A stretch of 64,000 nucleotides of DNA from an uncultured Calditrichaceae bacterium (GTDB taxonomy: Bacteria > Calditrichota > Calditrichia > Calditrichales > Calditrichaceae): assembly GCA_964536685.1 (NCBI GenBank), contig CAZIBE010000001.1, positions 62,310-126,309 on the forward strand, given 5' to 3'. Positions 1-43,874 of this stretch are shown in pieces; position 1 is the first letter of the stretch, and each line of letters begins with the position of its first letter. Both the position numbers and the translations under genes were made by a program. Below the pieces are notes generated by a model that saw only the letters and a program-made list of their open reading frames with translations, did no database searches and was not told the DNA's origin.

Positions 1-3000
1 TGCGGTACAACCGTTCGCCTCCTTTTTCGGAGAAGGGATGTGGCAGAAAGCGTTCGGCGGTTAAACCGGGACGGTTCAGATAGCCGCGGCTCAGGCCGTC
101 GCCGCTGATAAATATTTCACCGGGAATGCCCTGCGGCGCTAACTGCATGTCTGCATCTAAAATATACACTTGCGCATTCCGGATCGGCCGGCCGATGTTA
201 GGCGGACCGTCGTAACCGTTGATATGAAAGATGGTGGAATCCACCGTACATTCGGTGGGCCCGTAAACGTTATAGAACTGAGTTTGGCCGGCCGATTGTA
301 ATTGCCGCCAGACGTCGCCGTCGATGGCCTCGCCGCCGGGCAGGCAGATTTGCGGCTGCCATTGACCGTCTTCGAACATACCTTCAGCCAAAAGCAGTTT
401 TAGTTGTGAAGGCACGCAGTCCAGCACATCCAATTTGTTTTGGCGGATGAAGGACAACAAAAGATCGCCCGATAAACGCGCATCCTGCGGAATGGGGTAG
501 AGCGTATGCCCTTTTAACAAAAGCACTAATTGCTGCACCGAAGCGTCGAACAAAATGGGCGCGTTTAAACTGGCGCGTAACGGCTGCTCGTCTAAACGGT
601 TGTAGATTTCTTCATAAAGGCCGTCCAAAAGATGCAGCATGGACTGATGCTGAATCACTACGCCTTTAGGCTTGCCGGTGGAGCCGGACGTGTAAATAAC
701 GTACGCGCTGTTTTGCGGCACGGCGCTATTAGCGGGATTTTGTTCACTTTGGCGGCTGATGGCTTCCTGTTCCGCATCAATATAAATCACTTGTGCCTGG
801 TCCTGGGGCAGTTCGGATTTTTTGGTGGAAATAATGGTTTGCAGGCCGGCGTCTTCCACAATAAAGGCCAGCCGCTCTTTGGGATAATTGGGGTCTAAGG
901 GAACGTAAGCCGCGCCGGATTTTAACACGGCCAAAATGGATATAATCATTTCCAACGAGCGGTCCAGATGAATGCCCACAAAGGTTTCCGGTTCCGCGCC
1001 GCGTTGGCGTAAATAGTGCGCCAATTGATTGGCCTTGCGGTTGAGTTGCGCGTAGCTAAGCTGCGTCCCTTCCCAAACCACGGCAGTCCGCTCGGGCGCG
1101 GCGGCCGCCTGTTCCTGAAACAGAAGATGAAAACAGCCTGCCGCGCTTTTGCCGCTAACGCTGTGATTTAATTCATGCAGCAAACGCCGTTCTTCCTGTT
1201 TGCTTAACAGGGCAAGACGGGTGATTTTTTGCGCCGGCTGTTCGCTGATCGCTTTTAACAGATTCTGAAAATGTTCAATGAAGGCGCTAATGGTCGCCGC
1301 GTCAAACAGATCCGTATTGTATTCCCACATGGCGCGAATCGTCGAACGGTCTTCCACCACGGAAAGGGTCATATCGAATTTGGCGCTGCCGCTGTCCATT
1401 TCCAGCGGGCTGATGGAAATACCTTCCATTTCATAACTTTTTTGCGGCGCTTCCTGAAAAGCGAACATCACCTGAAAGATGGGCGTGTAGCTTAAATTCC
1501 GCTCCAGATTCAAGACGTCCACTATTTTTTCGAAGGGCACATCCTGATGCGCATAAGCCTGCTGAACTACTTCCTGCACGCGCGTCATGGCTTCTGTGAA
1601 GCCGGGAGCGCCGGAAAGGTCGCTGCGCAAAACAAGCGTATTTACAAAAAAACCAATCAGCGCTTCGGTTTCGCTGCGGTTGCGCCCGGCGACGGGAATG
1701 CCCACAACGATATCTTCCTGCCGGCTGTAACGGGAAAGGAAAATCTTAAACGCCGTCAGCAAAGTGGTGAACAATGTGCTTTTTTGATCAAGACTGAATT
1801 TTTTAAGCGCGGCGCTGATTTCTGCGGGGATTTCAAAATACTCGCGGCTGCCGTGGAAGGTCTGAACCCTGGGCCGCGGCCGGTCTGTGGGCAGTTGTAT
1901 AAGCGGCGGCGCGCCGCTTAATGTTTCTTTCCAGTAATCTAACTGCTGATTTAATTTTTCACCGTCCAGAAAGCTTCGCTGCCACTGGGCAAAATCAAAA
2001 TATTGAACAGGCAATTCCGGCAGCGGATTGGGTTGCTTATGCAAAAAAGCCTGGTACAAAACGGCCAGCTCTTTGATGAAAATCGAAAGGGAAACGCCGT
2101 CGGAAATGATATGGTGCATATTCAGCACAAACACATGGTCGTCAGGAGCAATCTGCAATAACCGGCAGCGCAGCAAGGGAGCTTGGTCAAGATTGAAGGG
2201 TGTGGCCGCTTCTTTACCGACCAGATTTTCGGCTTTTTGCAGGGCCGTTTGTTCGTCGGCGTCCGACAGAACGCTGAACACAATGGGCAGAGCAACGTTG
2301 TCCGCTATCTGCACTTGCGGCCGGCCTTCGATGGTTGTAAAGGAAGCGCGTAAAATTTCGTGCCGCTGAATGATCGTATTAATGCTTTTTTCCAGGATGG
2401 TTTTATCTAAGGCGCCTTTGATGCGTACGGCCACGGGCATATTGTAAAAAGGGCTGTCCGGCTCCAGTTGATCAAGAAACCAAAGACGCTGCTGCGAAAA
2501 AGAAAGCGGTTTGGGGGCGTCCGCGGGCAGACGCGAGATGTGCCGTATGGAGCGATCGAGCAGACGGCGGATTTCTGTGCGATTTTCGTAGCCGAATGCT
2601 TCGACTAACTCCCAGGCGCTGTCGGACAGATAGTCCTCTTTAAGGCTTTTTTTCCAGTGGTAAGCGCGGTCGGCCGTAATGCCTTTGTGCTCGTGGAAGC
2701 GCACGTCGCCTAACATCTTGGACAAATCATTCAAACCGTCGGTCATGCGCTTTTCTTTATTCTTTTGCGGTTCCAGCATATCCGGATGAATGTCGATATG
2801 TAAAAAGTCGCAGACGCCCTGAACCGTTTTTTGCGGTTCCTGTACAAGGTCCTCGTAAAACAGGCGATACCGGCGCTCGGCGGGAATATTCTCTAAAAAT
2901 TTTAAAATATTCTGGTGGCTGATCAACCAGACCAACTCGGCTAATTGCCGCGAGCTGAAGTTATGTTCGGCGGTAAAAAACGGCGGATAGAATACATGCA

Positions 3001-6000
3001 ATTTGGCTTTTTGAAAAGAGGGAATCACGCCGTAAGGATGGCGGATTAAATGGACGTAGAGCGCGTTGTCAAAATAGGCCTCGGCGCGCTGCAGGATATC
3101 GGGACTGAGGGCATAGTTGGGCGTTTTGTCCACAAACACGCGATCGCCGATCCATTCCTGCATGACGCGGTAAAAATCTTTAACGCTCATATTTTGCGCT
3201 TCGTACTCTTCCATAATTTGCCATGCTTCATCTACGGAGCAATCTTTTATGGCCATGATGGCGCGCACCGTGCCGTCCAGCCAAAAATCGTCGCGGCCGG
3301 TAAGATGCTTTTTGCGTTGCTGCAGGGTGTCGTAATTGAGTAATTGCAATTCGGGCGGCGAAAACAGCTTGGGACTGCCGCCTAAGATAGCGCGCGTTAA
3401 GGTGGAACCGGAACGGGGCGAAGAAATGACAAAGACGGCCTGAGTATTTTTCTGCTGCGCCGCTTCATCTTTGGCCGGGCCGGGAGACCAGATGATTCTA
3501 CGGAAGTGTTCGATATCATCTGTACGGATGCGCGTCTGCTCAAATTGCTGTTGAACTTTTTCGCCGGTGATTTTAAAAACGGACTGCGGATAATCCCGTT
3601 TTAACAGCTCGCACAATTCGGCAATGGTCGGCGCGTCGTACAATGCCACGATGTAAACATATTCGCCCAGAGCATCCTGCAAACGATTAACAAAGGTCGC
3701 CCCCTGGATGGAACTGCCGCCCAGAGCAAAAAAGTTATCGTGAATCCCGATGCGCTCCATTCCCAAAATATCTTTCCACATTTGGTAGATGAATTTTTGC
3801 AGTTTGGTTTGCGGCGGCTGATATTCGGCGGCGCCCGGGCCGGAAGCAACTGCGGAGGCGCTCAACGCTTTACGATTCACCTTGCCCGTAGTGGTTAGCG
3901 GAAAGCTGTCCGGAAAAATATAAACGGCCGGCAGCATATATTCCGGCAGAAGACCGGCAAGATACGCGCGCAACTCCTCTTCCGACGGTTCAGACTGGCT
4001 TTCGGCCAGCACATAGGCGCACAGGAATTTAACGCCATGCTCGTTTTCGGCGGCAACCACCGCGGCCCGGCTAATTTTATTGTGTTTGTTGAGCAGAGCT
4101 TCGATTTCGCCGATTTCGATGCGGAATCCGCGCAGTTTCAATTGATGATCCGCGCGTCCGTCAAATACGATGTTGCCGTCTTCCAAATAATGGGCTAAAT
4201 CGCCGGTTCGGTAAAAGCGCGCATTTTCTTTATCGGAAAAGGGATCGGGAATAAATTTCTCGGCCGTCAGTTCCGGTCGGTTCAGATAACCGCGGGCCAC
4301 GCCTTGCCCGCCGATGTAGATTTCGCCTTTCACACCGGGCGGAACAGGCTGGCGGTTGGCGTCTAAAATATACATGCGCATGTTTTGCATGGGCCGGCCG
4401 ATGGGAATTTTGCCAGCGGGGAAATCCAGCTTGTCCTCGGGATTTATTTGGTAGTAGCAGCTGGTAATGGTCGCTTCGGTCGGGCCGTAAGCATTAATAA
4501 AGCTGAGCGGTCGTTTAGCGTGAGCCCGCATCTGGGCGACTTTTTTAAGCGCGGGAGCTTCGCCGCCCACTACCATAATACGCAGCGATTCCGGAATAGT
4601 AAGCGCGCGCTCTTCTAAAAAATCAACCCAGTTTTGCCACAGAACAACAGGCAGATGCAAAATGGAAATTTGCTGATTTTTAACAATTTGCGAAATATCA
4701 TACGGCGTGATCAGGCTTCCCTTGGGCGGCAAAACCAGCGGAATGCCGCTGAGCAGCGCCGGGTAAATCTCTTCGCCGGCCGCATCAAAACTCAATGAGA
4801 AAAATTGCAGCATGCGGTCAGAAGCGTTTGGCTGGTAAGCGTCCATGGTGGCTAAAGCATGGTTTAACAGGGACTCGTGACGCACGAGCACCGCTTTGGG
4901 CGTTCCGGTTGAGCCCGACGTGTAAATTAAATAGGCCAGCGAATAGGGAGCCATCGGCGCCGTTGGATTGTTTTCTTCCTGATTGTTAAACTCCGCCTCT
5001 TTATCATCAGCTAAAACTATTTCAGCTTTTGCCTTAGAAAATATAGTGTCAAAACGTTTTTGTGTAAGAATAAATCTGGCCTGCGAATCGTCCAGAATCA
5101 GGGCGATACGTTCTTCCGGATAATCCGGGTCTACGGGAATGTAAGCCCCGCCCGCTTTAAGAACGGCTAACAGCGCGATGACCATTTCCGGGGAACGCTC
5201 CATGCTCAAAATGACCAGGTCTTCAGGCTGCAAGCCTTTATTAAGCAGATAATGGGCCAGTTGATTGGCGCGCCGGTTTAATTGGGCATAAGTAAGAATC
5301 TCTGCCGCTTCGTTTGTATTGAGCTGCGGCTGGTAAATAATGGCTGGCTTATCCGCGTTCTTTTGCGCCTGTTGTTCGAAAAGATGGTGCACGCACTGTT
5401 TAGCATATTCTGTTAAAGGCCGCGAGGTGTTATTCCATTCATAAAGAATGCGCTGTTCCTCTTTGGGAGTAAGCAAACGCAGGCCGCTGATGGGCTGCGC
5501 CGGATTTTCGACAATATTTTCCACTAATGTTGTAAAATAACCGATTAATTTCTGAATGGTTTCCCGTTTAAACAGATCCGTATTAAACCCGAAAATGCCG
5601 TTTAACCCATCGCTGGTTTGTTCCATAGAAAGAACGAGATCGAATTTAACGGTTCCGCTCTCTTGCTCGATGATGTCGATTTGCAAATCCGGAAATTCCA
5701 GCGCGGGTCTCGGCGTATTCCTGAAATCGAACAGAACCTGGAACAAAGGGTTGTGGCTGAGCTCGCGCTGCGGATTCAGTTCCTTTACGATCATCTCGAA
5801 AGGCACGTCGTTATTGGAAAAAGCGTCCAGACTGAATGATTTTATATTCTTTAAGAATTCCTCAAAGCTCTGGCTGACTTCCAGGCGGGGACGCATGACT
5901 ACAGTGTTAATAAATAAACCGATCAGGTTTTCGCTGCCTTTATAGTGCCGGTTGGCCAGCGGGGCGCCGATGCCGAAATCGCTTTGCCCGCTGTAGCGAT

Positions 6001-19500: not shown

Positions 19501-19668
19501 ATTAAGAATTAAGAATTAAGAATTGAGAATTCAATTAAAAACACGCTTTTTATCCATTAAATATTGTGCAAGTTTTACCATCCGTATAGCAAAAGCGTAA
19601 CTCTTTTGCTGAATGAGATTATTATCTTTCATTTTATCATAATTCTTAATTCATAATTCTTAATTATT
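19501..19668. repeat. Inverted arrays of a 7-nt tandem repeat (AAGAATT)n / (AATTCTT)n flanking a ~110-nt spacer between PKS and NRPS genes
   Basis: Left array 19501-19531: ATTAAGA ATTAAGA ATTAAGA ATTGAGA ATT. Right array 19641-19668: AATTCTT AATTCAT AATTCTT AATTATT. The right array overlaps the TAA stop (19660-19662) of the upstream PKS gene. The arrays are reverse complements and could form a long AU-rich stem on the transcript. Confidence 0.7.
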
Positions 19669-34324: not shown

Positions 34325-37300
34325 AATATATCCTCGTCTGACTCCCCGGAGTCGTCCATGTCTTCTTCCAGCTTTTGCAGTAAAAGCGCTTCCGCTTCTT
34401 CATCTGAAAGATTCTCAATTTCATCAATTGTTTTATCTAATTGATCTTCCTTGCTTTCTTTCGCTTCTTCCTCCGGCTCTTCTGTTCCGGAGCCAAACGA
34501 GAGCACATCCGTTAACAGATAACCGGTTAGAGCCTCGATTGTGGGATAGTTGAAGACCATGGTAGCCGGCAGTTTTTTACCGATAGCGCGGTCTAAAGCG
34601 TTCTTCATCTCGATGGCCATCAGCGAGTCCAATCCCATTTCGCTTAAGGGCTTCTTGATATCTAATGAAGAATCATTTTCCAGCCCCAAGATTTTTGCCG
34701 TACGTTTGCGCAAAAACCCGGTGATGATTTGCCTGCGGTTTTCCGGTTCGGCTTCTTCCAACTGGAGAACCAATTCCGGCTTTTCAGCTTCGGCTGCGGG
34801 CTGCGCGCCTTGAGAAACGGAAAAATTCCTCAGCACGGCGGGTACGTCGAATCCCTCAAAACGTTTTAGAAACGCTTTCCAGCGGATGGGTAAAACGGCC
34901 ATATTCACTTCGGAAGTCTGCAATATTTTATCTAATAAAGCCAGCCCCTGCTCTGGTAAAATAGCGCCCAATCCGTTCCGGAATCGTTTTAATGCAGGAT
35001 CGGTATCTGCCGCCATACCGGAGCCGCTCCACGGTCCCCAATTAATACTGACCGCGGGTTGCTTAAGTGTCGCGCGATATTGGGCTAAGGAATCCAAAAA
35101 AGCATTAGCCGCGGCGTAGTTGCCTTGGCCGGGCGAGCCTAACAGGGAAGCCATGGAAGAAAAGTAGACCACAAAATCCAGGTCCATGCCGGCTGTAGCC
35201 CGGTGCAGATTCCAAGCTCCGTGCATCTTGGGCCGGAATACTTTTTGGAAGCGCTCGCGGGTTTGCTGCAGCAGATGACCGTCGTCGAGCACACCAGCGG
35301 CGTGGATAATTCCGCCAAGAGCATTGCCGTTTTGCGAGCCATAGGTTTTAATGAGGGCATTGACCTGTTCAAAATCACTCACATCGGCTGTTTTGAAGCT
35401 GACTTGCGCGCCTTTTTGTTTAAGAGTATTGATGCGTTCCAATGCGTTTCCCTGCGGTTCGTGCCGGCCGGTGAGCGCTATATGTTTGGCGCCGTTACGA
35501 ACCAGCCATTCGGCTACGGTTAAGCCCAGCGCGCCTGCTCCGCCGGTAATCAGATAAACGGCTTCAGGGCGGATGGACAACGAAGGAACTTGTACTTCGT
35601 TTTTGCTTACGTCTTGTGTAATGACCACTTTGCCGATGTGCTTGGCCTGCTGCATATAACGGAAAGCCGAGAGGGCGTCCTCGATGGCATAGGTGCGCAG
35701 GGGCAGCGGTTGTAAGCGGCCGGATGCGAACAGTTCCATTAATTCCCGAAACATGGATTGAATCAGTTCCGGCTGCTCTTTGGAAAGGTCGTCCAGCGCG
35801 ATGGCGTGGTAAGCCACATCCGGCCGTTTGGCCTGCATCTTTTCCGCATCCCAGATGCCCACTTTGCCGATCTCCAAAAAACGCCCGCCCGTTTGCAGAA
35901 TGGACAGACCCTTTGGAATGTAATCATCCGTTAAGGAATTTAACAGTACGTTCACGCCTTCGCCGTTAGTGATTTGCATAACTTCGTCGGCAAAATCCAG
36001 CGAACGGGAGTTCATGACGTGTTTAATGCCCTGATTGCGCAGGAAGGCGCGTTTTTCATCGCTGCCGGCTGTGGCAAAGATTTCGGCGTTTTTCAGTTTG
36101 GCCAACTGAATGGCCGCCTGTCCCACGCCGCCGGAAGCCACATGGATAAAAACCCGTTCCCCCTCGTCCAGATTAGCCAGCCGGTACAGAGCATAGTAAG
36201 CCGTCAAAAAAGTAATGGGAATGGTCGCCGCTTCGGCAAAGGAAATATTTTGCGGTTTTTTTACGGCTAAATCGGCGTAAGTGGTCACATAGTCGGCAAA
36301 ACTACCGGCGGCAATGGCAATCACCTCGTCGCCGACCTGCAGGTGCGTTACCTCCGGGCCCACAGCCACAACGGCGCCGGCGCATTCGCCGCCCAGGGGA
36401 CCGGGATCGCCGGGATATAAATCCAAAGCATTCAGGACATCGCGGAAATTCAGCCCTGTAGCCTGCACGCGGATTTCAACCTGGCCTGTGCCGGGCGGGA
36501 TGCGCTGCATGGGTTTCATTTGCAGGTTGTCCAGCATGCCTTTCTGTTCGATGACTAACTGTTCCGACGTTTGCTGTGCAGCGCTTAAATCGTCGTTAAC
36601 CTGCGTCAAACGGGCTACAAAACGTTGATTAGCGCGCAACGCCACTTGATCTTCTTGGCCGGATTCGGCTAATTCGGCGGCCAGCGCCGGCCACAAGCCG
36701 TCTGCTTTTTGCAGGTTAATATCCACGCGCACGCAAGATACATCCGGATGATCCAGAACGATGACCTTGCCCAGGCCCCATAAAGGAGCGTTTGCCGGAT
36801 TGGGCCGGTCGCCGGCGTGAACCATCTGAGACTGGTTTGTCACCAGCCAAAGCCGCGGCATATTGCTGCGTCCGGGCGCGGCTAAGGTTTGCAGCAGGTA
36901 CAGAACGCTTTCCGTGCTGAATTTCTGAGCTTCCATCAGTTTATCCGCAGACCAGTCGTCCTGCGCCTGCGCCGCGATGCTCCATAAATGCACAATGCCG
37001 CGCAAAGGTTCGCTTGTTTCCTGCTCGATTTCGCTCAGAAGCCGTCGATAATCTTCGGTGAAATCCGCTCGGATTTTCCAGCTTTGCTCTTCTCTGGCAA
37101 ATTGTTCCGCCGGCAGAACCGTAATAACCGAACCGCTGTTCTTTTCGATTTCTTCCTTTAGCAAACGTCCTTGCTGCGTCTCATCCATAAACAACAGCCA
37201 TCGGCCGCTAAGATCGACTTTTTCTGCGGACGGCGCCTGGCTTTCCCACTGGAGCCGGTACAGCCATTTGGATGATTCGCTGTCCAACAAGGCCATTAAA

Positions 37301-40300
37301 GTTGATTTGCGCGTTCTGCTTAAATGCAGCTTTTTAGCAACGGCCAAAAGCTTGCCGTCTTCGCCGAAAAATTGCAGATCGGCGCTCAAACTGTTTTGAT
37401 CAGATAAATGGCTGTTTAGAGTAATATGAGCCCACAGCGGCTGAGTGGGCTCTTCAAATAAAACAAACTCTTCCATTCCGTCGGGCAGATAGATAAATTG
37501 TTCTGCCTGATTCTGTAAATTGCGGGGCAAAATGGCGGCCAACAACTGAAAACCGGCGTCCAACAGAGCCGGATGGAAATGGTAAAAAGTATTTGTTGTT
37601 TGCGCTTTTTCCGGCAGTTCGATTTTTCCCAGCGCTTCGCCCTGTCCGCTGTGAATTTCCCGCAGGGACCGAAAAACCGGACCATAATTGAAACCTTGTC
37701 CGTTCAACTCGGCATAGAAGGGTTCCGCTTTGATAGTTTCCGTGCAGCGCGTTAAAATTTCTTCGGGGCTTTCCGTGGAATTTTCCGTCGTTTGATCGCT
37801 CGTAAGCACATGCGCGCTGGCATGAAGAACCCATTCCGAGAAGTGCTCATCCTCATCGCTGTCGGCGTCTGTAAATTGGCTGTAAATTTTAATTTTCAGC
37901 CCGTCTGCGTCGTTTTCTGCAGGAGTAAGTATGGTTTGCAGGCTGCCTATTCCTTCTTCCGGCAGCTTGAGAGGCGCGTTGATTTTAAAATCTCTCAGCA
38001 CGGACAAATGCTCTCCGTCATATTCACGGGCGGCGGCCAGACACATCTCGATGAAACCGGTAGCAGGCAAAAGCGCCATATTCATAATGCGATGGTCGGA
38101 TAATTCCTGCACGGATTTCATGGAAATAAACGCTTCGAATACGCTGTTTTTTAACGCCGGAGACTGTAGGCGACGTCCCAGTAAGCGGTGACGGACGTAC
38201 TTAAAGGCAGCGGGCAGACCGGCCATGGAAACGCTTTCCGGCGTTTCTTCCGCATCTTCGAACCAGTAGCGTTTGCGCTGGAAAGGATAGCCCGGCAGGG
38301 GGAGGAGGTTACGGTTGTACTCTTTATCGAAGGCTTCCCAGTTTATGGAGGCATTATTGACAAAAAGCGCGGCCACACTGTTTAACAGCACCGGCCAATC
38401 CTCTTTTTTACGGTTTAACGAAGGCAGCCAAACGGCTTCTGATTCCGGCAAGCAATGGCGACCCATGCCTAAAAGGGTTGGATGCGGGCCGGTTTCAAGG
38501 AAAATATCGACATTTTCAGCGGATAGGGTTTTCATGCCGTCATCGAACAACACAGCCTGACGGATATGCGCGCGCCAGTAAGCCGCGTCGGGAATCTGAA
38601 GGTCGTCTAATAATTTACCGCTCAGATTGGAAACGATGGGAATTTGCGGAAGGCGGTAGTCGACCTCTTTGGCGATGGTTTCGAATTCATCCAAAATGGG
38701 ATCCATTAAGGGCGAATGAAAGGCGTGCGATACGGTAAGATAGGTTACTTTTATGTTTTGTCCTTCGAATTGCCCGGCTACCTGCCGCACGGCTGCCTTT
38801 TCGCCGGAGATGACCGTATTGCTGGGACCGTTCACGCCGGCAAGAGAAATTTTGTCTTCCAGGCCGGACAGAGCCTTTTCCACTTCGCTGCGCTGGGCGA
38901 AAATGGCCGCCATAGCGCCGTTTTGCGGTAAGGATTGCATCAGCCGTCCGCGGGCGGAAATCAATTTCATGCCTTCTTCCAAGCTAAAAACGCCGGAGAT
39001 GACCGCAGCCACATATTCGCCGACACTGTGTCCGATAAGCACATCCGGCTGAACGCCCCATGATTGCCAGAGTTTAGCCAAAGCATATTCAACGGCAAAC
39101 AGGGCCGGCTGCGTGTATTGGGTTTCATTGATCCTGGCGCTGTTTTCATCTTCGGGAAAGATGACGCTTAACAGCGGCTCGGGCAAATATTCGGCCGATA
39201 TAGCGCTGCAGCGATTCATTGCCGCACGGAAAGTGGGCTGTGTTTCGTAGAGGTTTTTGCCCATATTTACATACTGGGCGCCCTGACCGGTAAACAGAAA
39301 GGCAATCTTGGGCGGAGAAGTTCTATTGTTTGTACGAACAAAAATATCCTCATTTTCTTCATTATTTTTTATTGCGGTTAATTTTTCCGACAAATCATTC
39401 AGATCGTGTACCACGGCGGCGGCGCGCTGTTCAAAATGCGTCCGGCGGCTGTTCATGGTATAGCACACATCGCCGATGGAAAGCTGCGGATTCTCGTTAA
39501 AGTAGGAAAAAAGATTTCCGGCGTATTCGCTCAATGCCGCCTCGTTTTTGGCTGAAAGCGTAAATACGTGTTCTTTGCGCTCCGCTGGATTGGCGCGAGC
39601 GGTTTTCTCCGGCGCTTCTTCCAAAATAAGATGGGCGTTTGTGCCGCCAAAACCGAAAGCGCTGATAGCCGCGTAACGTTTCCGATCAGCATGGGGCCAG
39701 GGCAGGTTTTCCGTAACCACTTTGATGGGAACATCGTCCAATTTGATGTAGGGATTAAGCTTTTTAAAATGTAAATGAGACGGAATCTCTTCGTTTTTTA
39801 AAGATAATACGGTTTTAATCAGCCCGGCAACACCCGCGGCGGATTCCAGATGCCCAATATTGGTTTTGACGGAGCCGATGTACAAAGGCTTTTCTTTGGA
39901 ACGTTCCTGCAGCATGGTCTTTTTGATAGATTCGATCTCGATGGGATCGCCCAAAGGCGTGCCCGTGCCGTGTGTTTCCAGATACTGGATTTCATCCGGA
40001 GCCAGATCGGCGTTTTCCAGAGCGTCGTTAATCACCGCTTGCTGGGCTAAACTGTTTGGCGCGGTGAGGCCGTTGCTGCGGCCATCCTGATTTACCGCGG
40101 AACCGCGGATTACCGCCAAAATATTATCGCCGTCCTTAACGGCTTCCGAAAGGCGTTTAAGCACAACCAGACCGGCGCCTTCGCCGCGGCCGTAACCGTC
40201 GGCGCTGGCGTCAAACGTTTTGCAGCGGCCGTCGGCGGACATCATGCGCGCCTGTGAAAAGGTGATAGTTACTTCTGGAGAGAGAATCAGATTTACGCCT

Positions 40301-43116
40301 CCGGCCAAAGCCAGATCGCAGTCGCCGTCCCGTAAACTCTGACAGGCGTTGTGCACGGAAACCAGCGAAGATGAGCAGGCGGTGTCGATGGACATGCTGG
40401 GTCCGTGAAAATTGTAAAAATAAGATATTCGGTTCGAGGCGATACTAAAGGCATTGCCTGTGCCGGAATAAGGATTAAGGCTGGCAATGGCTCCCATTTG
40501 CAGGCGTGAGTAATCGTTGGAACTGATGCCGATAAAAACGCCGGTGCGCGTGTCGGCTACTTTTTCGTAAGGTAAACCGGCCGATTCCAGAGCTTCCCAA
40601 CTCACTTCCAGCAGCAGCCGCTGCTGGGGATCGACCTGTCCGGCTTCGCGGGGCGAGATGCCGAAAAAATCGGCGTCGAACATATCCACCTGATCGACAA
40701 ATCCGCCTTCTTTGGTAATCATTTTACCCGGTTTGGCCGGATCGGGGTCGTAATAGCGATCGGCGTCCCAGCGATTGGGCGGCACTTCGCTGATGCCGTC
40801 CACGCCGTTCTTGAGCAGCTGCCAGAACTCCCTTGTATTGTTTGCTCCGGGGAAGCGGGAACCCAAACCGATGATGGCAATCGGTTCGTATTCGGCCGTG
40901 CGCTTACGGCTAACGCGTGCGGTTGGAGCAACGCCCGTTTCTTCGCTGGCTAAATAAAAGGCTAAAGCTTCGATGGTGGGGTAGTCCCAGATGAGCGTAG
41001 GCGGCAAAGTACGGTTCAGCCACTCTTCCAAATCGCCGGCCAGGCCTACGGCCTGCGCCGAATCGAGGCCAAAGCTGGCAAACGGTTGATGGAGATCGAT
41101 TTCCTTCGCCGGCATACCCAGGCTTGCCGAAAGCTGATCTACCAGCCATTTTTCGATTGCTTTTACCTGCTCGCTTTTGGCGGCCAGCGCTGCAGGAGGC
41201 GGAGCGACTGTTTGTTCTTCTTCTGTTTTCGGCGGGACGGTTAAATCGCTGCCGGCCATTTGCCACCGGGCAACCACGGCCAACTTCTCATCCAGATAGG
41301 CCGATTTCGTAGCGCGGCGCATGATTTTGCCGCTGGAGGTTTTTAAAATCGAACGGGCTTTAATCAACACAACCGCAGACGTTTGTAAATCGTGATTCAG
41401 TGTTACGGCCTGACGAATGGCGTCGATGATTTCGTCAAAGGGCAGGTTTTTACTTTGCCGGACTTCGGCGACCACTACCAACTGTTCAGTGGCTCCTTCG
41501 TCGATGGTAAAAGCGGCGCTGCAACCTTTGCGCAAAGCCGGATGGGATTCTTCAACGGTTAATTCAATATCTTGCGGGTAATGATTAGTACCCCGGACGA
41601 TAATCAGATCTTTCACGCGGCCGGCAACAAACAAATTGTCGTCTATTATAAAACCCAAATCCCCGGTGCGCAGGTACGGGCCGTCGCCGCTGTCTGCCAG
41701 ATAATTCTGAAAGGTCTCTTTGGTCGCTTCTTCCCGCTTATAGTAACCGCGGGAGACGCTGGGACCTTTAACCCATATTTCACCGATGTCGCCGGGTTTA
41801 CATTCTAAAAAGGTCTCGGTATTGACGATGATGGTTTTTTGCCCTTTGGGATTGTGACCGGAACTGACCAGTGTTTGGCTGTTGGGGTCGTCCTCAGGAA
41901 CTTTGATTACACTATTCTTTTTAAGGGCCGCTTTATCAACCGTGAGCGTTACCGGCGGTTTGTATAGTTCGGACCCGGTTACCAGCAGAGTAGCCTCGGC
42001 CAAACCGTACGCCGGAAAGAAGGCCTCTTTGCGAAAACCGGCTGGTTTAAAGACCTCGGAAAAACGTTCGATGGTCTGAGCGCGCACCGGTTCGGCTCCG
42101 CTCAGCGCCATTTCCCAGCGGCTTAAATCCAATTGAGCGATTTTTTCCGGCGTAGCTTTTTTGACGCAGAGATCATAAGCAAAATTAGGCGCCGCCGAGC
42201 CGGCCACAAATTCTTCGGGAAGGCGGCTGATAGCATTTAGCCAGCGCAGGGGGCGCTGCAAAAAGGCAATGGGCGACATGAGTAAACTGGGGCAGCCGGA
42301 ATACAGCGGCTGTAAAACCCCGCCGATTAAACCCATGTCGTGATAAATAGGCAACCAAAATACTCCGACGGTGTTCTTCTTGTAGCCCAGTTCTTCGTAA
42401 ATAATTTTGGAATTGGCTAATAAGTTGCTGTGTGTTAAAATAACGCCTTTGGGATTGCCGGTGGAGCCGGAAGTATACTGTAAAAATGAAATGGTTTCCG
42501 AATCAATACGCGGTTCTTTCCAGCCTTCCGCTAAGCCCGAAGCGATGCCGTCGGTGGAAAGCCATTGCAAATCTCCTAATTCCCTGGATTCGGCCACGGC
42601 GCGTCTGCCGGAGGAGAAGTATTTCATAGATGTTTGAAACTTGCGCATAAAGGGCACTTTTTCCAGAGCGCTGGTTAACTTGTTGCCAAGCTTCAGCATT
42701 TGGATCATGTACAAAATGGAATCCGAAGTCAGGGCCACGGTTGCGCCGGCGTCGTTAACGATGGCCTGCAAGCGGGGCAGGGAACGGTTTAGGCGATTGG
42801 GATCGGGCGGATAAGCCGGTACGGCGATCACGCCGGCATACAGACAGCCAAAAAAACCGCTGATGTAGTCCAATCCCGGCGGATAGAGCAGTAAAGCCCG
42901 TTCGCCAGTTAGTCCCTTGCTCATTAATGAAGCGGCAATAGCTCGCGCGCGCCGATCCAACTCGCCATAAGAAAGGCGAATTTCTTTCTTTTCGCCGTCT
43001 TTGAGATATGTGTATGCAATTTTATCCGGTTCGGTGAGCGCTCGCCAGCGTAGTAACTGCACCAGGGTTGCAGGAGAAAAATTAGGATCTGTGTAATCAA
43101 TCTGTTTTTTGGACAT
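34321..43116 (-). CDS. Loading/first extension PKS: FAAL-ACP-KS-AT-DH-ER-KR-ACP
   Basis: ORF track, 2931 aa. The N-terminal adenylating domain has no preceding C domain: LSYGELDRRARAIAASL, FLQYTSGSTGNPKGV, YLRTGDLGF, KTSSGKIMRR. ACP: FGLDSAQAV. KS: EPIAIIGLGSRFPG, DTACSSSLV, ETHGTGTPLGDP, KTNIGHLESAAG. AT: FLFTGQGAQY, GHSVGEY, SHAFHS. DH: HRLLGRRLQSP, GFNYGPVF, HPALLDAGFQ. ER: LNFRDV, HVASGGVGQAAIQLA. KR: YLITGGAGALG, HAAGVLDD, NYAAANAFLD. ACP: MGLDSLMAIEMKN. Long acidic C-terminal tail. Confidence 0.95.
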   Translation of the reverse strand: MSKKQIDYTDPNFSPATLVQLLRWRALTEPDKIAYTYLKDGEKKEIRLSYGELDRRARAIAASLMSKGLTGERALLLYPPGLDYISGFFGCLYAGVIAVPAYPPDPNRLNRSLPRLQAIVNDAGATVALTSDSILYMIQMLKLGNKLTSALEKVPFMRKFQTSMKYFSSGRRAVAESRELGDLQWLSTDGIASGLAEGWKEPRIDSETISFLQYTSGSTGNPKGVILTHSNLLANSKIIYEELGYKKNTVGVFWLPIYHDMGLIGGVLQPLYSGCPSLLMSPIAFLQRPLRWLNAISRLPEEFVAGSAAPNFAYDLCVKKATPEKIAQLDLSRWEMALSGAEPVRAQTIERFSEVFKPAGFRKEAFFPAYGLAEATLLVTGSELYKPPVTLTVDKAALKKNSVIKVPEDDPNSQTLVSSGHNPKGQKTIIVNTETFLECKPGDIGEIWVKGPSVSRGYYKREEATKETFQNYLADSGDGPYLRTGDLGFIIDDNLFVAGRVKDLIIVRGTNHYPQDIELTVEESHPALRKGCSAAFTIDEGATEQLVVVAEVRQSKNLPFDEIIDAIRQAVTLNHDLQTSAVVLIKARSILKTSSGKIMRRATKSAYLDEKLAVVARWQMAGSDLTVPPKTEEEQTVAPPPAALAAKSEQVKAIEKWLVDQLSASLGMPAKEIDLHQPFASFGLDSAQAVGLAGDLEEWLNRTLPPTLIWDYPTIEALAFYLASEETGVAPTARVSRKRTAEYEPIAIIGLGSRFPGANNTREFWQLLKNGVDGISEVPPNRWDADRYYDPDPAKPGKMITKEGGFVDQVDMFDADFFGISPREAGQVDPQQRLLLEVSWEALESAGLPYEKVADTRTGVFIGISSNDYSRLQMGAIASLNPYSGTGNAFSIASNRISYFYNFHGPSMSIDTACSSSLVSVHNACQSLRDGDCDLALAGGVNLILSPEVTITFSQARMMSADGRCKTFDASADGYGRGEGAGLVVLKRLSEAVKDGDNILAVIRGSAVNQDGRSNGLTAPNSLAQQAVINDALENADLAPDEIQYLETHGTGTPLGDPIEIESIKKTMLQERSKEKPLYIGSVKTNIGHLESAAGVAGLIKTVLSLKNEEIPSHLHFKKLNPYIKLDDVPIKVVTENLPWPHADRKRYAAISAFGFGGTNAHLILEEAPEKTARANPAERKEHVFTLSAKNEAALSEYAGNLFSYFNENPQLSIGDVCYTMNSRRTHFEQRAAAVVHDLNDLSEKLTAIKNNEENEDIFVRTNNRTSPPKIAFLFTGQGAQYVNMGKNLYETQPTFRAAMNRCSAISAEYLPEPLLSVIFPEDENSARINETQYTQPALFAVEYALAKLWQSWGVQPDVLIGHSVGEYVAAVISGVFSLEEGMKLISARGRLMQSLPQNGAMAAIFAQRSEVEKALSGLEDKISLAGVNGPSNTVISGEKAAVRQVAGQFEGQNIKVTYLTVSHAFHSPLMDPILDEFETIAKEVDYRLPQIPIVSNLSGKLLDDLQIPDAAYWRAHIRQAVLFDDGMKTLSAENVDIFLETGPHPTLLGMGRHCLPESEAVWLPSLNRKKEDWPVLLNSVAALFVNNASINWEAFDKEYNRNLLPLPGYPFQRKRYWFEDAEETPESVSMAGLPAAFKYVRHRLLGRRLQSPALKNSVFEAFISMKSVQELSDHRIMNMALLPATGFIEMCLAAAREYDGEHLSVLRDFKINAPLKLPEEGIGSLQTILTPAENDADGLKIKIYSQFTDADSDEDEHFSEWVLHASAHVLTSDQTTENSTESPEEILTRCTETIKAEPFYAELNGQGFNYGPVFRSLREIHSGQGEALGKIELPEKAQTTNTFYHFHPALLDAGFQLLAAILPRNLQNQAEQFIYLPDGMEEFVLFEEPTQPLWAHITLNSHLSDQNSLSADLQFFGEDGKLLAVAKKLHLSRTRKSTLMALLDSESSKWLYRLQWESQAPSAEKVDLSGRWLLFMDETQQGRLLKEEIEKNSGSVITVLPAEQFAREEQSWKIRADFTEDYRRLLSEIEQETSEPLRGIVHLWSIAAQAQDDWSADKLMEAQKFSTESVLYLLQTLAAPGRSNMPRLWLVTNQSQMVHAGDRPNPANAPLWGLGKVIVLDHPDVSCVRVDINLQKADGLWPALAAELAESGQEDQVALRANQRFVARLTQVNDDLSAAQQTSEQLVIEQKGMLDNLQMKPMQRIPPGTGQVEIRVQATGLNFRDVLNALDLYPGDPGPLGGECAGAVVAVGPEVTHLQVGDEVIAIAAGSFADYVTTYADLAVKKPQNISFAEAATIPITFLTAYYALYRLANLDEGERVFIHVASGGVGQAAIQLAKLKNAEIFATAGSDEKRAFLRNQGIKHVMNSRSLDFADEVMQITNGEGVNVLLNSLTDDYIPKGLSILQTGGRFLEIGKVGIWDAEKMQAKRPDVAYHAIALDDLSKEQPELIQSMFRELMELFASGRLQPLPLRTYAIEDALSAFRYMQQAKHIGKVVITQDVSKNEVQVPSLSIRPEAVYLITGGAGALGLTVAEWLVRNGAKHIALTGRHEPQGNALERINTLKQKGAQVSFKTADVSDFEQVNALIKTYGSQNGNALGGIIHAAGVLDDGHLLQQTRERFQKVFRPKMHGAWNLHRATAGMDLDFVVYFSSMASLLGSPGQGNYAAANAFLDSLAQYRATLKQPAVSINWGPWSGSGMAADTDPALKRFRNGLGAILPEQGLALLDKILQTSEVNMAVLPIRWKAFLKRFEGFDVPAVLRNFSVSQGAQPAAEAEKPELVLQLEEAEPENRRQIITGFLRKRTAKILGLENDSSLDIKKPLSEMGLDSLMAIEMKNALDRAIGKKLPATMVFNYPTIEALTGYLLTDVLSFGSGTEEPEEEAKESKEDQLDKTIDEIENLSDEEAEALLLQKLEEDMDDSGESDEDIL
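41270..43116 (-). other. Fatty acyl-AMP ligase (FAAL)-type starter adenylation domain
   Basis: The N-terminus (TLVQLLRWRALTEPDKIAYTYLKDGEKKEIRLSYGELDRRARAIAASL) and cores (YTSGSTGNPKGV, GLAEAT, YLRTGDLGF, GRVKDLIIVRGTNHYPQDIE, SSGKIMRR) are typical of FAAL/FadD32-like loading domains. It is followed directly by an ACP rather than being CoA-dependent. The FAAL-specific insertion was not verified. Confidence 0.7.
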
Positions 43117-43118
43117 AA

Positions 43119-43874
43119 CTAACTCTTGTTGGTTAAATCAGTAGTTTTTTTGATTAACTGTTGCCAAGACTGGCCGTGCCGTGTTTTAAAAGAGCGGCTA
43201 AAAGCGGAAATATTTTTGTAGTCCAGTACGTCAAATATTTCTTTTGGTTTCAAGTTTCGCTGGAAGAGCAATTCGCTTTCATAATGGTACAAAACTTTTT
43301 GTTTGAAATTGCGGAAGCTCATTAAAAATGCCTTTCTGAATTCCGCCCGAAAATGACTTTCAGAAATATTTAAATAATCGGCTATATGATTAGAAGTGAA
43401 ATTCTTTACCGGATGTGTCTCGATAAGATTAATAATCATCTGGTCGCGGGAAGAGAGGGGAAAGGCTTTTTCCGGAATGATGTTCAGCGGGATACGTTTC
43501 CAGTGATTCTGCCAGAGCTCGCGCAACACTTTGATGAGATGAAACTGACGGGCGTCGCCGATAACGCAGTAATCCACTCCGGCCAGATATAAATGGGCGA
43601 ATTCTTCGCTTTTCATCTGCGAATTGTAGAAAATAATCCGGACCAGAGGAAAAGTGCGGCGCAAAGCGGAAAGTTGTTTTAGGGAAGATTCATGAAGGTC
43701 CTGCGAATAGAGAACAAAGTAAAAATCCGATTCGGCAACGAAGTGGATGAGAGCCTCAGGAGAGGAGTGGTTGTTGCCGGAAAAGGATATAGTCCAGCCC
43801 TGTAATTGGTTTAAAACTTCCTCTTTTTCTATAAAGGAAGTTTCGGAGTTGTCAACTACCAGCAGATTAGACAA
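43119..43874 (-). CDS. Transcriptional regulator: N-terminal receiver-like domain plus C-terminal AraC/XylS-type HTH
   Basis: ORF track, 251 aa. The C-terminus reads NHIADYLNISESHFRAEFRKAFLMSFRNFKQKVLYHYESELLF...PKEIFDVLDYKNISAFSRSFKTRHGQSW, the two-HTH AraC pattern. The N-terminus LLVVDNSE...YFVLYSQDLHE...VRIIFYNS resembles a CheY-like fold with atypical acidic-pocket residues. TTG start at 43874-43872. Its stop lies 2 nt before the FAAL-PKS start. Confidence 0.8.
   Translation of the reverse strand: MSNLLVVDNSETSFIEKEEVLNQLQGWTISFSGNNHSSPEALIHFVAESDFYFVLYSQDLHESSLKQLSALRRTFPLVRIIFYNSQMKSEEFAHLYLAGVDYCVIGDARQFHLIKVLRELWQNHWKRIPLNIIPEKAFPLSSRDQMIINLIETHPVKNFTSNHIADYLNISESHFRAEFRKAFLMSFRNFKQKVLYHYESELLFQRNLKPKEIFDVLDYKNISAFSRSFKTRHGQSWQQLIKKTTDLTNKS

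What the first reader, a model, noticed from the sequence alone, without database searches (positions are those of the whole stretch)
1..43874. FAAL-primed hybrid PKS/NRPS assembly line with in-line sulfotransferases: candidate for an undescribed (sulfated?) lipopeptide
Seen: seven co-directional genes lie head-to-tail on the minus strand, separated by a 4-nt overlap or by gaps of 2, 14, 195, 210 and 502 nt. Read colinearly they predict the following sequence. A fatty acyl starter is loaded by FAAL-ACP. One fully reducing malonyl extension follows, then one extension whose reductive loop looks dead. Next comes amino acid 1 (code DAETVAGICK), then a malonyl extension with KR only, then amino acid 2 (DAENIGAITK). 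Then a Val-like residue (DALWLGGTFK), ST, a Gln-like residue (DAQDLGMVDK) that is epimerized, amino acid 5 (DAEHVGAITK), ST, Gln (DAQDLGVVD-), and more beyond the edge. Established: FAAL loading plus mixed PKS/NRPS modules is the standard logic for lipopeptides. Inference: I do not recognise this domain string from any characterised pathway. No release domain, PPTase, MbtH-like gene, transporter or PAPS-supply gene is visible on the right side, so the rest of the cluster must lie to the left of base 1.
Basis: partly seen in the sequence, partly recalled or inferred. Interest (0 to 1): 0.7.

Follow-up and report, generated by a model that had tools for sequence, protein, structure and literature searches.

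The report
Calditrichota lipopeptide synthetase with built-in sulfotransferases
The window holds the first half of an intact, roughly 90-kb enzyme assembly line from a little-studied bacterial phylum that should build a 16-residue fatty-acid-capped peptide. It carries two sulfate-transferring domains wired into peptide-elongation modules, an arrangement that is common in metagenomes but for which I found no characterised example.

Summary
Seven intact co-directional minus-strand genes have exactly the stated spacings, and all domains and specificity codes reproduce. Three corrections apply. The first gene is an AraC-type regulator. The host belongs to Calditrichota, not cyanobacteria. An RND efflux pump does lie on the right flank.

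A 99.98 %-identical metagenome contig, a 96 %-identical MAG and Caldithrix abyssi DSM 13497 confirm this. They show ten more NRPS modules ending in a thioesterase, then an MFS transporter, MbtH, type II thioesterase, PPTase and one or two stand-alone sulfotransferases.

The in-line sulfotransferases are close homologues of the CurM/OLS "activating" enzymes (E = 5e-66). They form two orthologous types and are the most conserved part of their proteins (78 % identity against 40–51 %; dN/dS 0.09). They follow Val- and Arg-like modules, so the acceptor hydroxyl is unresolved.

A sulfated lipopeptide is the best reading. Sulfate acting as a leaving group is the main rival. I found no described product or matching literature. 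Verdict: genuine, orphan, a new variant of a known kind.

The parts
43119..43874 (-). g1: AraC-family transcriptional regulator (251 aa). It ends 2 nt upstream of g2 and is probably the pathway regulator.
   Evidence: Pfam HTH_18 at aa 164-239. NCBIfam gives only AraC-like hits.
34321..43116 (-). g2: FAAL-ACP loading module plus fully reducing PKS module (KS-AT-DH-ER-KR-ACP), 2931 aa.
   Evidence: Pfam. NCBIfam fatty-acyl-AMP-ligase models are the top specific hits. KS Cys/His/His, AT GHSVG/HAFH, ER GGVG, KR GGAGALG/YAAAN and DH HPALLD motifs are all intact.
41275..43050 (-). FAAL domain of g2.
   Evidence: AMP-binding plus DIP2-like C-terminal domain. FAAL NCBIfam models score E = 1e-110 to 1e-133.
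24815..34324 (-). g3: PKS module with inactive reductive loop (KS-AT-DH*-ER*-KR*-ACP) fused to NRPS module 1 (C-A-T; code DAETVAGICK, aromatic/Tyr-like).
   Evidence: Pfam, motif inspection, code. The nearest published codes are Tyr DASTVAAVCK and Phe DAWTIAGVCK.
28355..31528 (-). Degenerate DH-ER-KR loop of g3 (predicted inactive, so the beta-keto group is retained).
   Evidence: Full-length homology to the g2 loop at 25.6 % identity (E = 1.6e-100). The DH Asp is replaced by Asn, the ER GGVG and KR GxGxxG motifs are lost, and there is no Pfam KR hit.
19660..24312 (-). g4: PKS module KS-AT-KR-carrier. It extends amino acid 1 to a gamma-amino-beta-hydroxy (statine-type) unit.
   Evidence: Pfam. 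Active-site TACS, HGTGT, HAFH, GGLGRIG and YAAAN motifs are present.
16084..19464 (-). g5: NRPS module 2, C-A-T. Code DAENIGAITK is an exact match to a published Arg code.
   Evidence: Pfam, code. Arg(9) DAENIGAITK in PMC12283262 Table S12.
7121..16069 (-). g6: NRPS modules 3-4, C-A(Val, DALWLGGTFK)-T-ST1-C-A(Gln/Glu, DAQDLGMVDK)-T-E.
   Evidence: Pfam, codes. Val-type pattern DAxWLGGTFK. E domain by TIGR01720.
11750..12625 (-). ST1: in-line PAPS-dependent sulfotransferase domain of g6 (CurM/OLS family, type 1).
   Evidence: PDB hits CurM ST 4gbm (E = 5.3e-66) and OLS ST 4gox (E = 2.4e-65). PRSGSTLLRVMLAG, SPPEL, VDKTPSY and LVRHPY motifs are conserved. Clade analysis.
2..6910 (-). g7 (truncated by the window edge; full length 2989 aa = P0001): NRPS modules 5-6, C-A(Arg-like, DAEHVGAITK)-T-ST2-C-A(Gln/Glu, DAQDLGVVDK)-[T-E].
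   Evidence: Pfam, 100 % match to P0001, full gene seen on L003, codes.
2576..3439 (-). ST2: in-line sulfotransferase domain of g7 (CurM/OLS family, type 2). Together with its carrier domain (3602-3790) it is the most conserved segment of the protein.
   Evidence: 78 % identical to the C. abyssi ST2 against 40-51 % for the C, A and E domains. dN/dS is 0.085 for ST and 0 for T1, against 0.19 for the gene.
43875..44639 (.). AT-rich (33 % GC) 765-nt divergent intergenic region between g1 and gltX. It is the probable promoter region and the right-hand cluster boundary.
   Evidence: The next gene to the right is a housekeeping GluRS.

Best explanation
Shown: the locus. The window contains the regulator, loading module, three PKS modules and the first six NRPS modules of an intact assembly line of about 90 kb in a Calditrichota bacterium.

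Inferred by colinearity: the product.
1. The FAAL adenylates a fatty acid and loads it on an ACP.
2. One malonyl extension is fully reduced.
3. A second extension keeps its beta-keto group because its reductive loop is dead.
4. An aromatic (Tyr-like) amino acid is condensed on.
5. That residue is extended by a KR-only PKS module to a statine-type gamma-amino-beta-hydroxy acid.
6. The chain then receives Arg, Val, D-Gln/Glu, an Arg-like residue and D-Gln/Glu.
7. In near-identical relatives the line continues with ten more residues (x, Phe, Glu, D-Lys, x, Phe, x, Asn, Tyr, Tyr-like). A C-terminal thioesterase releases the chain.

Inferred: the sulfotransferase step. Two CurM-family, PAPS-dependent sulfotransferase domains are each fused to a specialised carrier domain. 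They transfer sulfonate onto a hydroxyl of the carrier-tethered intermediate while it waits at modules 3 and 5. The two domains are distinct, conserved orthologous types, which implies two distinct conserved acceptor sites. Because the amino acid loaded by the type-1 module varies freely among relatives, the type-1 acceptor is more likely a conserved upstream hydroxyl (the statine beta-OH or the Tyr-like phenol) than the module's own side chain.

Expected product. Together with the stand-alone sulfotransferases in the cluster tail of relatives, the mature product is most likely a multiply O-sulfated, Arg/Lys-containing lipopeptide exported by the cluster's MFS transporter.
For: Gene and domain anatomy, with catalytic motifs intact.

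Specificity codes and published matches: codes; published tables.

ST homology: CurM/OLS ST with PAPS-binding and PPEL motifs retained.

Continuation and tail of the cluster:
- L003, 99.975 % identical to window 1-7916.
- Dive96 Calditrichota MAG, 96.6 % identical in g7.
- C. abyssi.
- Together these show a TE-terminated 4523/4516-aa NRPS, then MFS, MbtH, TEII, PPTase and 1-2 stand-alone Sulfotransfer_3 genes.

Selection on the ST: T1 86 % and ST 78 % identity against 40-51 % for the other domains. dN/dS is 0.085 for ST and 0.19 for the whole gene.

Two ST orthogroups.

Variable A1 code within the ST1 clade (Val/Ile, Ser, Tyr-like, Arg-like, Asp-like).

Precedent for retained sulfate from an in-line NRPS ST: OciA and DysB (PMC2533009, PMC6520454).

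Recovery: an identical g5 protein occurs in four independent datasets.
Against: - No acceptor hydroxyl is evident on the residues loaded by the ST modules (Val, Arg-like).
- No hydroxylase gene was seen in any fetched part of the cluster.
- The closest characterised relatives of these STs (CurM, OLS) install sulfate only to expel it.
- The TE, MbtH, PPTase, MFS and stand-alone ST genes were seen only in relatives, not on the window's own contig beyond L003.
- No PAPS-synthesis genes are nearby.
- No product has been observed.
- A-domain codes are predictions. DAQDLGVVDK is listed for both Gln and Glu.
- The N-terminal part of the C. abyssi cluster differs: a carnitine-acyltransferase-family gene sits where g3 would be.
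Confidence: 0.6

Rival explanations
1. Activation, not decoration. As in CurM/OLS, the in-line STs sulfonate a hydroxyl on the carrier-bound chain only to make it a leaving group. Elimination or intramolecular displacement would follow. Possible outcomes are a vinylogous Tyr from the statine unit, a dehydro-amino acid, or a cyclic guanidine from a beta-hydroxy-Arg. The final product would then lack sulfate at these positions.
For: - The domains are close homologues of the only biochemically defined 'activating' STs. PMC3903477 summarises their role.
- g4 has a KR but no DH, so KR plus ST could substitute for a dehydratase.
- In the wider family, about 40 % of in-line NRPS STs follow Ser- or Thr-activating domains, whose beta-O-sulfonated thioesters would eliminate easily.
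- 15 of the 149 closest representatives end A-T-ST-TE, the NRPS counterpart of CurM's ACP-ST-TE.
Against: - The C domains after the STs are ordinary. They are no closer to each other (45 %) than to a non-ST C domain (44-48 %).
- No dedicated CurM-type TE follows the ST.
- The ST acts one or two modules after the KR-derived hydroxyl has become part of an amide, where elimination is harder.
- In-line NRPS STs with known products (OciA, DysB) retain the sulfate.
- Stand-alone STs in the same clusters argue for a sulfated end product.
Confidence: 0.25
2. N-sulfonation. ST2 always follows an Arg-like (DAEH) module, and the C. abyssi ST1 follows an Arg module. These domains might sulfonate the guanidino or amino side chain to give a sulfamate, comparable to SulN acting on Dap in sulfazecin.
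For: - Strict association of the ST2 clade with DAEH codes.
- The DAENIGAITK Arg module carries ST1 in C. abyssi.
- SulN precedent for in-trans N-sulfonation of a carrier-bound peptide (PMC11298585, listed; the paper was not opened).
Against: - CurM-family STs are known only as O-sulfotransferases.
- ST1 in the window follows Val, and in the MAG an Ile/Val-type module.
- Within the ST1 clade the residue varies widely.
Confidence: 0.1
3. Relic or silent cluster. The ST domains, like the reductive loop of g3, are inactive remnants and the locus no longer makes a product.
For: - One reductive loop is clearly dead.
- In the 96 % relative two NRPS genes are split into fragments.
- There are no expression data.
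Against: - All seven window ORFs are uninterrupted over 43.9 kb.
- Catalytic motifs of the KS, AT, C, A, T, E and ST domains are intact.
- dN/dS is 0.19 for g7 and 0.085 for the ST.
- The ST is the best-conserved domain across the family.
- The cluster is conserved across Calditrichota, including a cultured strain.
Confidence: 0.04
4. Already known. The cluster makes a compound family that has been described, and a MIBiG entry with the same domain order exists.
For: None was found. MIBiG could not be queried with these tools, and the paper library lacks most subscription journals.
Against: - The best named homologues are generic NRPSs at 37-46 % identity.
- Same-architecture proteins carry only generic NRPS annotations, in Calditrichota genomes and unannotated metagenome contigs.
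- Ten full-text searches found no Caldithrix or Calditrichota natural product and no in-line ST in an NRPS elongation module.
Confidence: 0.06

Closest known systems
CurM (curacin A) and OLS (Synechococcus olefin synthase) ACP-ST-TE termination modules
   Same: The ST domain is the same family (E about 1e-65, roughly 45-50 % identity). PAPS-binding loops and the PPEL catalytic motif are conserved. The ST sits immediately after a carrier domain and acts in cis on a tethered substrate.
   Different: Here the ST follows an NRPS T domain loaded with Val or an Arg-like residue and is followed by a C domain, not a TE. There is no beta-hydroxyacyl thioester made by an adjacent KR, and no decarboxylative chain release. 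Two STs sit in mid-line elongation modules. The 149 closest representative STs are all in NRPS context, and CurM/OLS cluster apart from them.
OciA (Planktothrix cyanopeptolin-1138/oscillapeptin E) and DysB (dysinosin) NRPS loading modules with a sulfotransferase domain
   Same: An ST domain is built into an NRPS, and sulfate is retained in the product (PMC2533009, PMC6520454).
   Different: Those STs sit in initiation modules with a glyceric-acid (FkbH-type) loading domain and sulfate glyceric acid. Here there is no FkbH or GA domain, and the STs are in amino-acid elongation modules. Sequence relatedness to OciA/DysB was not tested.
FAAL-primed cyanobacterial and Bacillus lipopeptide pathways (puwainaphycin/minutissamide, hassallidin, mycosubtilin/iturin, microginin)
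   Same: FAAL plus ACP loading of a fatty acid, followed by PKS extension and a multimodular NRPS, with MbtH, PPTase and TEII accessories. This comparison rests on my own knowledge of these families.
   Different: This cluster has no aminotransferase domain (no beta-amino fatty acid), a different phylum, a dead reductive loop, an internal NRPS-to-PKS(KR) statine-forming step, in-line STs and 16 residues. No sequence-level match to these pathways was seen among named homologues.
Statine or isostatine-forming NRPS-to-PKS(KS-AT-KR-ACP) steps, e.g. didemnin B
   Same: An amino acid thioester is extended by a KR-only PKS module to a gamma-amino-beta-hydroxy acid (g3 module followed by g4). This comparison rests on my own knowledge.
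   Different: The context is a long lipopeptide with downstream ST domains. Stereochemistry and the identity of the aromatic residue are unknown.
SulN/SulM (sulfazecin)
   Same: PAPS-dependent sulfonation of a carrier-bound peptide before release (PMC11298585, listed; the paper was not opened).
   Different: SulN is a stand-alone enzyme that N-sulfonates Dap and enables beta-lactam formation. Here the STs are fused domains of the CurM family.

Membership tests
Hybrid FAAL-PKS-NRPS lipopeptide assembly line | Fatty acyl-AMP ligase fused or adjacent to an ACP at the start of the line | tested here: met
   g2 aa 23-614 AMP-binding plus DIP2-like C-domain, then PP-binding at 657-719. FAAL NCBIfam models are the top specific hits.
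Hybrid FAAL-PKS-NRPS lipopeptide assembly line | PKS modules with catalytic KS (Cys-His-His), AT (GHSxG) and carrier Ser | tested here: met
   Motifs are present in g2, g3 and g4.
Hybrid FAAL-PKS-NRPS lipopeptide assembly line | NRPS C-A-T modules with HHxxxD, A-domain core motifs and carrier Ser | tested here: met
Hybrid FAAL-PKS-NRPS lipopeptide assembly line | Chain-release domain plus PPTase, MbtH and exporter accessories | tested here: inconclusive
   Absent from the window. Present downstream in the 96 %-identical MAG (L040) and in C. abyssi (L041): TE-terminated NRPS, MFS, MbtH, TEII and PPTase. The window's own contig could be followed only about 12 kb leftwards (L003).
CurM/OLS-type activating sulfotransferase | Sequence membership of the CurM ST family with PAPS-binding loops and the PPEL Glu motif | tested here: met
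   E = 5.3e-66 (4gbm) and 2.4e-65 (4gox), with motifs aligned. The catalytic role of the Glu is from my recollection of McCarthy et al. 2012; that paper is not held.
CurM/OLS-type activating sulfotransferase | Follows the ACP of a KS-AT-KR module that presents a beta-hydroxyacyl thioester | tested here: not met
   Both STs follow NRPS A-T pairs (Val; Arg-like).
CurM/OLS-type activating sulfotransferase | Followed by a dedicated TE that hydrolyses, decarboxylates and eliminates sulfate | tested here: not met
   Both STs are followed by C domains. The only TE domain lies about 10 modules downstream in relatives.
OciA/DysB-type NRPS loading-module sulfotransferase | ST combined with an FkbH-like glyceric-acid loading domain in the initiation module | tested here: not met
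   No FkbH or GA domain occurs in any window protein, and the STs are in elongation modules 3 and 5. Family features are taken from PMC2533009 and PMC6520454.
Any characterised (MIBiG) cluster | Same domain order and high protein identity to a cluster with a known product | not testable with these tools
   No MIBiG or antiSMASH is available. Indirectly, there are no informatively named close homologues and no literature.

The most novel reading that the evidence does not exclude
The carrier-ST-condensation arrangement is a general, uncharacterised NRPS tailoring logic in which a CurM-type sulfotransferase acts on carrier-bound peptide intermediates. In this Calditrichota family it may serve as an on-line 'chemical activation' step. 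Sulfonation of the statine or a beta-hydroxyl, followed by elimination or cyclisation, would give vinylogous or dehydro residues or a cyclic guanidine without a dehydratase or oxygen-dependent chemistry. The domain family has 1127 representative clusters at E <= 1e-30, and the 149 closest representatives examined are all embedded in NRPSs, so a mechanism shown here would annotate many orphan clusters.
Probability: 0.25. Interest if true: 0.8.

Novelty: new variant of a known kind. Interest (0 to 1): 0.58.

Why it matters
I know of no natural product from the phylum Calditrichota, and ten literature searches found none. This cluster family is conserved across the phylum, including the cultured Caldithrix abyssi DSM 13497, so the prediction can be tested directly by mass spectrometry.

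The T-ST-C module type has no biochemically characterised example that I could find, yet it is abundant in metagenomes. Defining its acceptor, and whether the sulfate is kept or expelled, would add a tailoring rule to NRPS structure prediction.

The predicted product combines a statine-type unit (a protease-inhibitor pharmacophore), cationic residues and several sulfates on a lipid anchor. That is an unusual chemotype.

Tried and rejected
Rejected ideas.
- Cyanobacterial origin. Ruled out by a sigma-54 NtrC-type activator in the flank and 96.6-99.98 % DNA identity to Calditrichota or metagenome contigs.
- The ST modifies its own module's side chain. This holds for many distant NRPSs (Thr, Ser and Tyr codes). 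It is unlikely for ST1 because A1 varies within the ST1 clade.
- A specialised post-ST C-domain subtype. None is evident.

Look-ups and searches that failed.
- Exact look-ups of g6 and P0001 returned 'not on record'.
- A homologue search with a partial 1136-aa query missed the true orthologue, because only targets up to 1.75x the query length appear to be listed.
- Full-text searches for Stachelhaus strings found nothing. The codes were located only by reading supplementary tables of PMC12283262.
- The CurM ST structure paper (PMC3528841) is not held.

Negative results in the window and nearby loci.
- There is no MbtH-like motif in any frame, and the four intergenic gaps hold only short open stretches with no obvious gene.
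- Promoter and terminator consensus matches are not above shuffled expectation.
- There are no tRNA or Rfam hits.
- The 309-aa ORF between NRPS genes on L003 has no Pfam, NCBIfam or PDB match.


Full report
**Observation**

The window carries seven co-directional minus-strand ORFs: 43119-43874, 34321-43116, 24815-34324, 19660-24312, 16084-19464, 7121-16069, and 2-6910, which is cut by the window edge.

Pfam gives these domain strings:
- g1: an AraC-type HTH only
- g2: FAAL-ACP-KS-AT-DH-ER-KR-ACP
- g3: KS-AT-(weak DH and ER, no KR)-ACP-C-A-T
- g4: KS-AT-KR-carrier
- g5: C-A-T
- g6: C-A-T-ST-C-A-T-E
- g7: C-A-T-ST-C-A...

NCBIfam places the g2 N-terminus among fatty acyl-AMP ligases. It identifies the g6 C-terminus as an epimerisation-type domain, with TIGR01720 above its cut-off.

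I re-derived all Stachelhaus codes against GrsA-PheA (control code DAWTIAAICK).

The 'dead reductive loop' of g3 is real. It aligns end to end with the intact g2 loop at 25.6 % identity (E = 1.6e-100). However, the DH Asp motif reads HPIVLNNIVR, the ER nucleotide motif reads DADTPEGL in place of GGVG, and the KR Rossmann motif reads IAGTSSVND. All KS, AT, C and carrier motifs are intact.

Two small corrections apply. The first 'gene' is a regulator rather than part of the loading module. The right flank does contain a transporter, a HlyD/AcrB/OEP RND pump at 54964-60906. It lies 11 kb away, behind gltX and two-component genes.

**Organism and authenticity**

The flank encodes a sigma-54 NtrC-type activator. 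To my knowledge cyanobacteria lack sigma-54, so this argues against a cyanobacterial origin.

- The truncated g7 is 100 % identical to a 2989-aa protein (P0001) from a 157-kb NCBI contig.
- A JGI metagenome contig (L003) is 99.975 % identical to window 1-7916.
- A 'Calditrichota bacterium' MAG (JAJRSO010000063.1) is 96.6 % identical across g7.
- Proteins with the same C-A-T-ST-C-A-T-E architecture and length occur in Caldithrix abyssi DSM 13497 and several Calditrichota MAGs.
- An identical g5 protein is present on contigs from four independent datasets.

The locus is therefore genuine and belongs to Calditrichota.

**The rest of the cluster**

L003 extends the window's own population by about 12 kb. 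It shows:
- full-length g7
- a 2159-aa C-A-T-C-A-T gene (codes DAAIGAGVSK and DAWTVAAVCK, the latter an exact Phe code)
- a 309-aa orphan ORF and a HAD-IIA phosphatase
- the start of a 2628-aa NRPS

In the 96 % MAG the line continues as follows:
1. C-A(Glu-like)-T-C-A(Lys-like)-T-E
2. a T9SS-sorted protein
3. a dimodular NRPS
4. a 4523-aa tetramodular NRPS ending in a thioesterase (codes: unread, Asn DATKVGEVGK, Tyr DASTVAAVCK, DAETVAGVCK)
5. an MFS transporter, MbtH, a type II thioesterase, a PPTase and two stand-alone Sulfotransfer_3 genes

C. abyssi has the same tail with one stand-alone ST.

The complete system is therefore about 90 kb: a FAAL starter, three malonyl extensions and 16 amino acids. 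The window's own contig could not be followed that far.

**Predicted product**

Published signature tables (PMC12283262 supplement) support these assignments:

| Position | Code | Assignment | Basis |
|---|---|---|---|
| g5 | DAENIGAITK | Arg | exact published code |
| g7-A1 | DAEHVGAITK | Arg-like | 8/10 match to Arg codes |
| g6-A1 | DALWLGGTFK | Val | DAxWLGGTFK pattern |
| g6-A2, g7-A2 | DAQDLG[MV]VDK | Gln or Glu | listed for both |
| g3-A | DAETVAGICK | aromatic, Tyr-like | nearest Tyr/Phe codes |

By colinearity the N-terminus would be a 3-oxo-acyl group, because of the dead loop. It is attached to an aromatic residue that g4 (KR only) converts to a statine-type gamma-amino-beta-hydroxy acid. 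The chain continues Arg-Val-D-Gln/Glu-Arg-like-D-Gln/Glu and onward. These steps are inferences.

**The sulfotransferase domains**

The g6 ST matches the crystal-structure sequences of CurM ST (4gbm, E = 5.3e-66) and the OLS ST (4gox, E = 2.4e-65). The PRSGSTLLRVMLAG, SPPEL, VDKTPSY and LVRHPY motifs are conserved. These are the 'activating' STs that sulfonate a beta-hydroxyacyl-ACP before TE-mediated decarboxylative elimination (summarised in PMC3903477).

Here the context differs: an NRPS carrier lies upstream and a C domain downstream.

The two STs are only 49 % identical to each other, but each has an orthologue in C. abyssi. ST2 is 78 % identical and ST1 54 %.

In the g7 family the carrier-ST pair is by far the most conserved segment. 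T1 is 86 % and ST 78 % identical, against 40-51 % for the C, A and E domains. Against the 96 % MAG, dN/dS is 0.085 for ST, 0 for T1 and 0.19 for the gene. The domains are under strong purifying selection and are not relics.

**Breadth of the arrangement**

A phmmer search of the g6 ST against 1.84 billion representative proteins found 3071 hits at E <= 1e-3 and 1127 at E <= 1e-30. The 149 closest representatives all sit in NRPS context where the context is readable:
- 60 are A...ST followed by C
- 31 end after the ST
- 15 are followed by a TE
- none follows PKS domains

The A domain just upstream is most often Thr (about 21) or Ser (about 20). It is also Val/Ile-type (about 12-14), Tyr (about 8), Arg/Lys-like (about 7) or an unknown code, DIWExTADDK (7).

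For the Ser and Thr cases the beta-hydroxyl of the tethered residue is the obvious acceptor, analogous to the CurM substrate.

Clustering the ST sequences puts g6-ST in a clade made mostly of ~2950-3000-aa C-A-T-ST-C-A-T-E proteins (where full length). Their A1 code varies: mostly Val/Ile, but also Ser, Tyr-like, Arg-like and Asp-like. g7-ST falls in a clade that, where the code is readable, follows DAEH Arg-like modules.

I read this as follows. ST1 most likely recognises something constant in the upstream chain, with the statine hydroxyl or the aromatic residue as candidates. ST2 may recognise either a second constant site or the Arg-like residue. This is inference. Co-inheritance of whole modules could produce part of the pattern.

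**Retained sulfate or leaving group?**

For retention:
- The in-line NRPS STs with known products, OciA and DysB, give sulfated glyceric acid.
- The clusters also encode stand-alone STs. These are unrelated at BLAST level to the in-line domains and weakly resemble two PDB entries annotated only as 'putative uncharacterized protein' (2z6v, 2zq5).
- The post-ST C domains are unremarkable.

For activation:
- The homology is to CurM/OLS.
- g4 lacks a DH.
- Ser/Thr-ST modules are frequent elsewhere.
- A-T-ST-TE termini exist.

I put about 0.6 on a sulfated product with on-line O-sulfonation, about 0.25 on the leaving-group logic, about 0.1 on N-sulfonation of Arg-like residues, and about 0.04 on inactivity.

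**Comparison with known systems and novelty**

The system works like a FAAL-primed PKS/NRPS lipopeptide line. All features testable in the window are met, and the release and accessory genes are seen in relatives.

The ST domains belong to the CurM family by sequence. They fail two contextual criteria of the CurM/OLS termination module: there is no KR-ACP upstream and no TE downstream. They also lack the glyceric-acid loading context of OciA/DysB.

I found no close named homologue. I also found no literature on a Calditrichota natural product or on an ST in an NRPS elongation module. MIBiG could not be queried, and the library lacks most subscription journals.

I therefore rate the locus a new variant of a known kind. 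It is an orphan cluster from an unexplored phylum with an uncharacterised but widespread tailoring arrangement. It is testable in the cultured C. abyssi DSM 13497.

**Limits**

- No product is known.
- A-domain codes are predictions.
- The acceptor sites are unresolved.
- The cluster tail is documented only in relatives.
- The 5' part of the C. abyssi cluster differs: a carnitine-acyltransferase-family gene lies upstream of its g4 homologue.
- In the 96 % MAG the g5/g6 region is only 65-69 % identical at DNA level and two NRPS genes are fragmented. This points to module-level recombination or assembly errors in that MAG.

Noticed in passing
window 52829-60906 (+): An OmpR-type response regulator and histidine kinase are followed by a complete HlyD/AcrB/OEP RND efflux system, 9-11 kb right of the cluster. 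Whether this pump serves the lipopeptide is unknown.
   Followed up: partly
window 46084-48902 (+): A histidine kinase plus a sigma-54-dependent NtrC-type activator sit next to gltX. This was the first clue that the host is not a cyanobacterium. C. abyssi also has a sigma-54 activator just past its cluster tail (L041 29245-30741).
   Followed up: partly
window 50139-50785 (+); L002 19069-19664: A PIN-domain (VapC-like) gene with a 69-aa upstream partner lies in the window flank. In C. abyssi a VapB/PIN pair is inserted between two NRPS genes of the orthologous cluster.
   Followed up: no
window 61109-64000 (+): A long ORF with a PHP-type N-terminus (HLHTHSYYSLLDG) looks like DNA polymerase III alpha (assigned by eye, not tested) and runs off the right edge. 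Local GC rises to 0.55, against 0.42-0.47 in the neighbouring flank.
   Followed up: partly
L001 1-10000 versus window 7121-19464: The cluster is a mosaic. The Calditrichota MAG is 96.6 % identical to the window in g7 but only 65-69 % in the g5/g6 region. Its g6 homologue activates an Ile/Val-type residue (DAFFMGVTFK) and is split into 1998-aa and 973-aa ORFs. This suggests module-level recombination within the family.
   Followed up: partly
L003 17052-18772: A 309-aa ORF with no Pfam, NCBIfam or PDB match and a HAD-IIA phosphatase sit between two NRPS genes in the window's own lineage. Both are absent at that position in the 96 % MAG. A role for the phosphatase in PAP or PAPS turnover is pure speculation.
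   Followed up: partly
L040 2077-3432; L041 382-2310: A secreted protein with Ig/cadherin-like domains (cadherin-like in the C. abyssi copy) and a type IX secretion sorting tail is conserved between NRPS genes of the cluster in both the MAG and C. abyssi. This is an odd passenger for a biosynthetic operon.
   Followed up: no
L002 1-490: In C. abyssi a choline/carnitine acyltransferase-family gene (603 aa) lies directly upstream of the KS-AT-KR-ACP gene, where the window has g3. The start of the C. abyssi pathway may therefore differ.
   Followed up: no
representative proteins P0275-P0394: Fifteen of the 149 closest ST representatives end A-T-ST-TE, the NRPS counterpart of CurM's ACP-ST-TE. Some follow Thr, Ser or Tyr modules, which suggests sulfonation-coupled release in peptides.
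   Followed up: partly
window 51484-52311 (+): A 275-aa protein resembles the selenium-dependent molybdenum-hydroxylase maturation factor YqeB (NCBIfam E = 6e-25, below the cut-off). It is preceded by a 230-aa ORF with no family match.
   Followed up: no
window 1-44000 versus 44000-60000: The biosynthetic genes average about 0.50 GC against about 0.44 in the adjacent housekeeping flank. Whether this reflects horizontal acquisition or NRPS codon composition was not tested.
   Followed up: no
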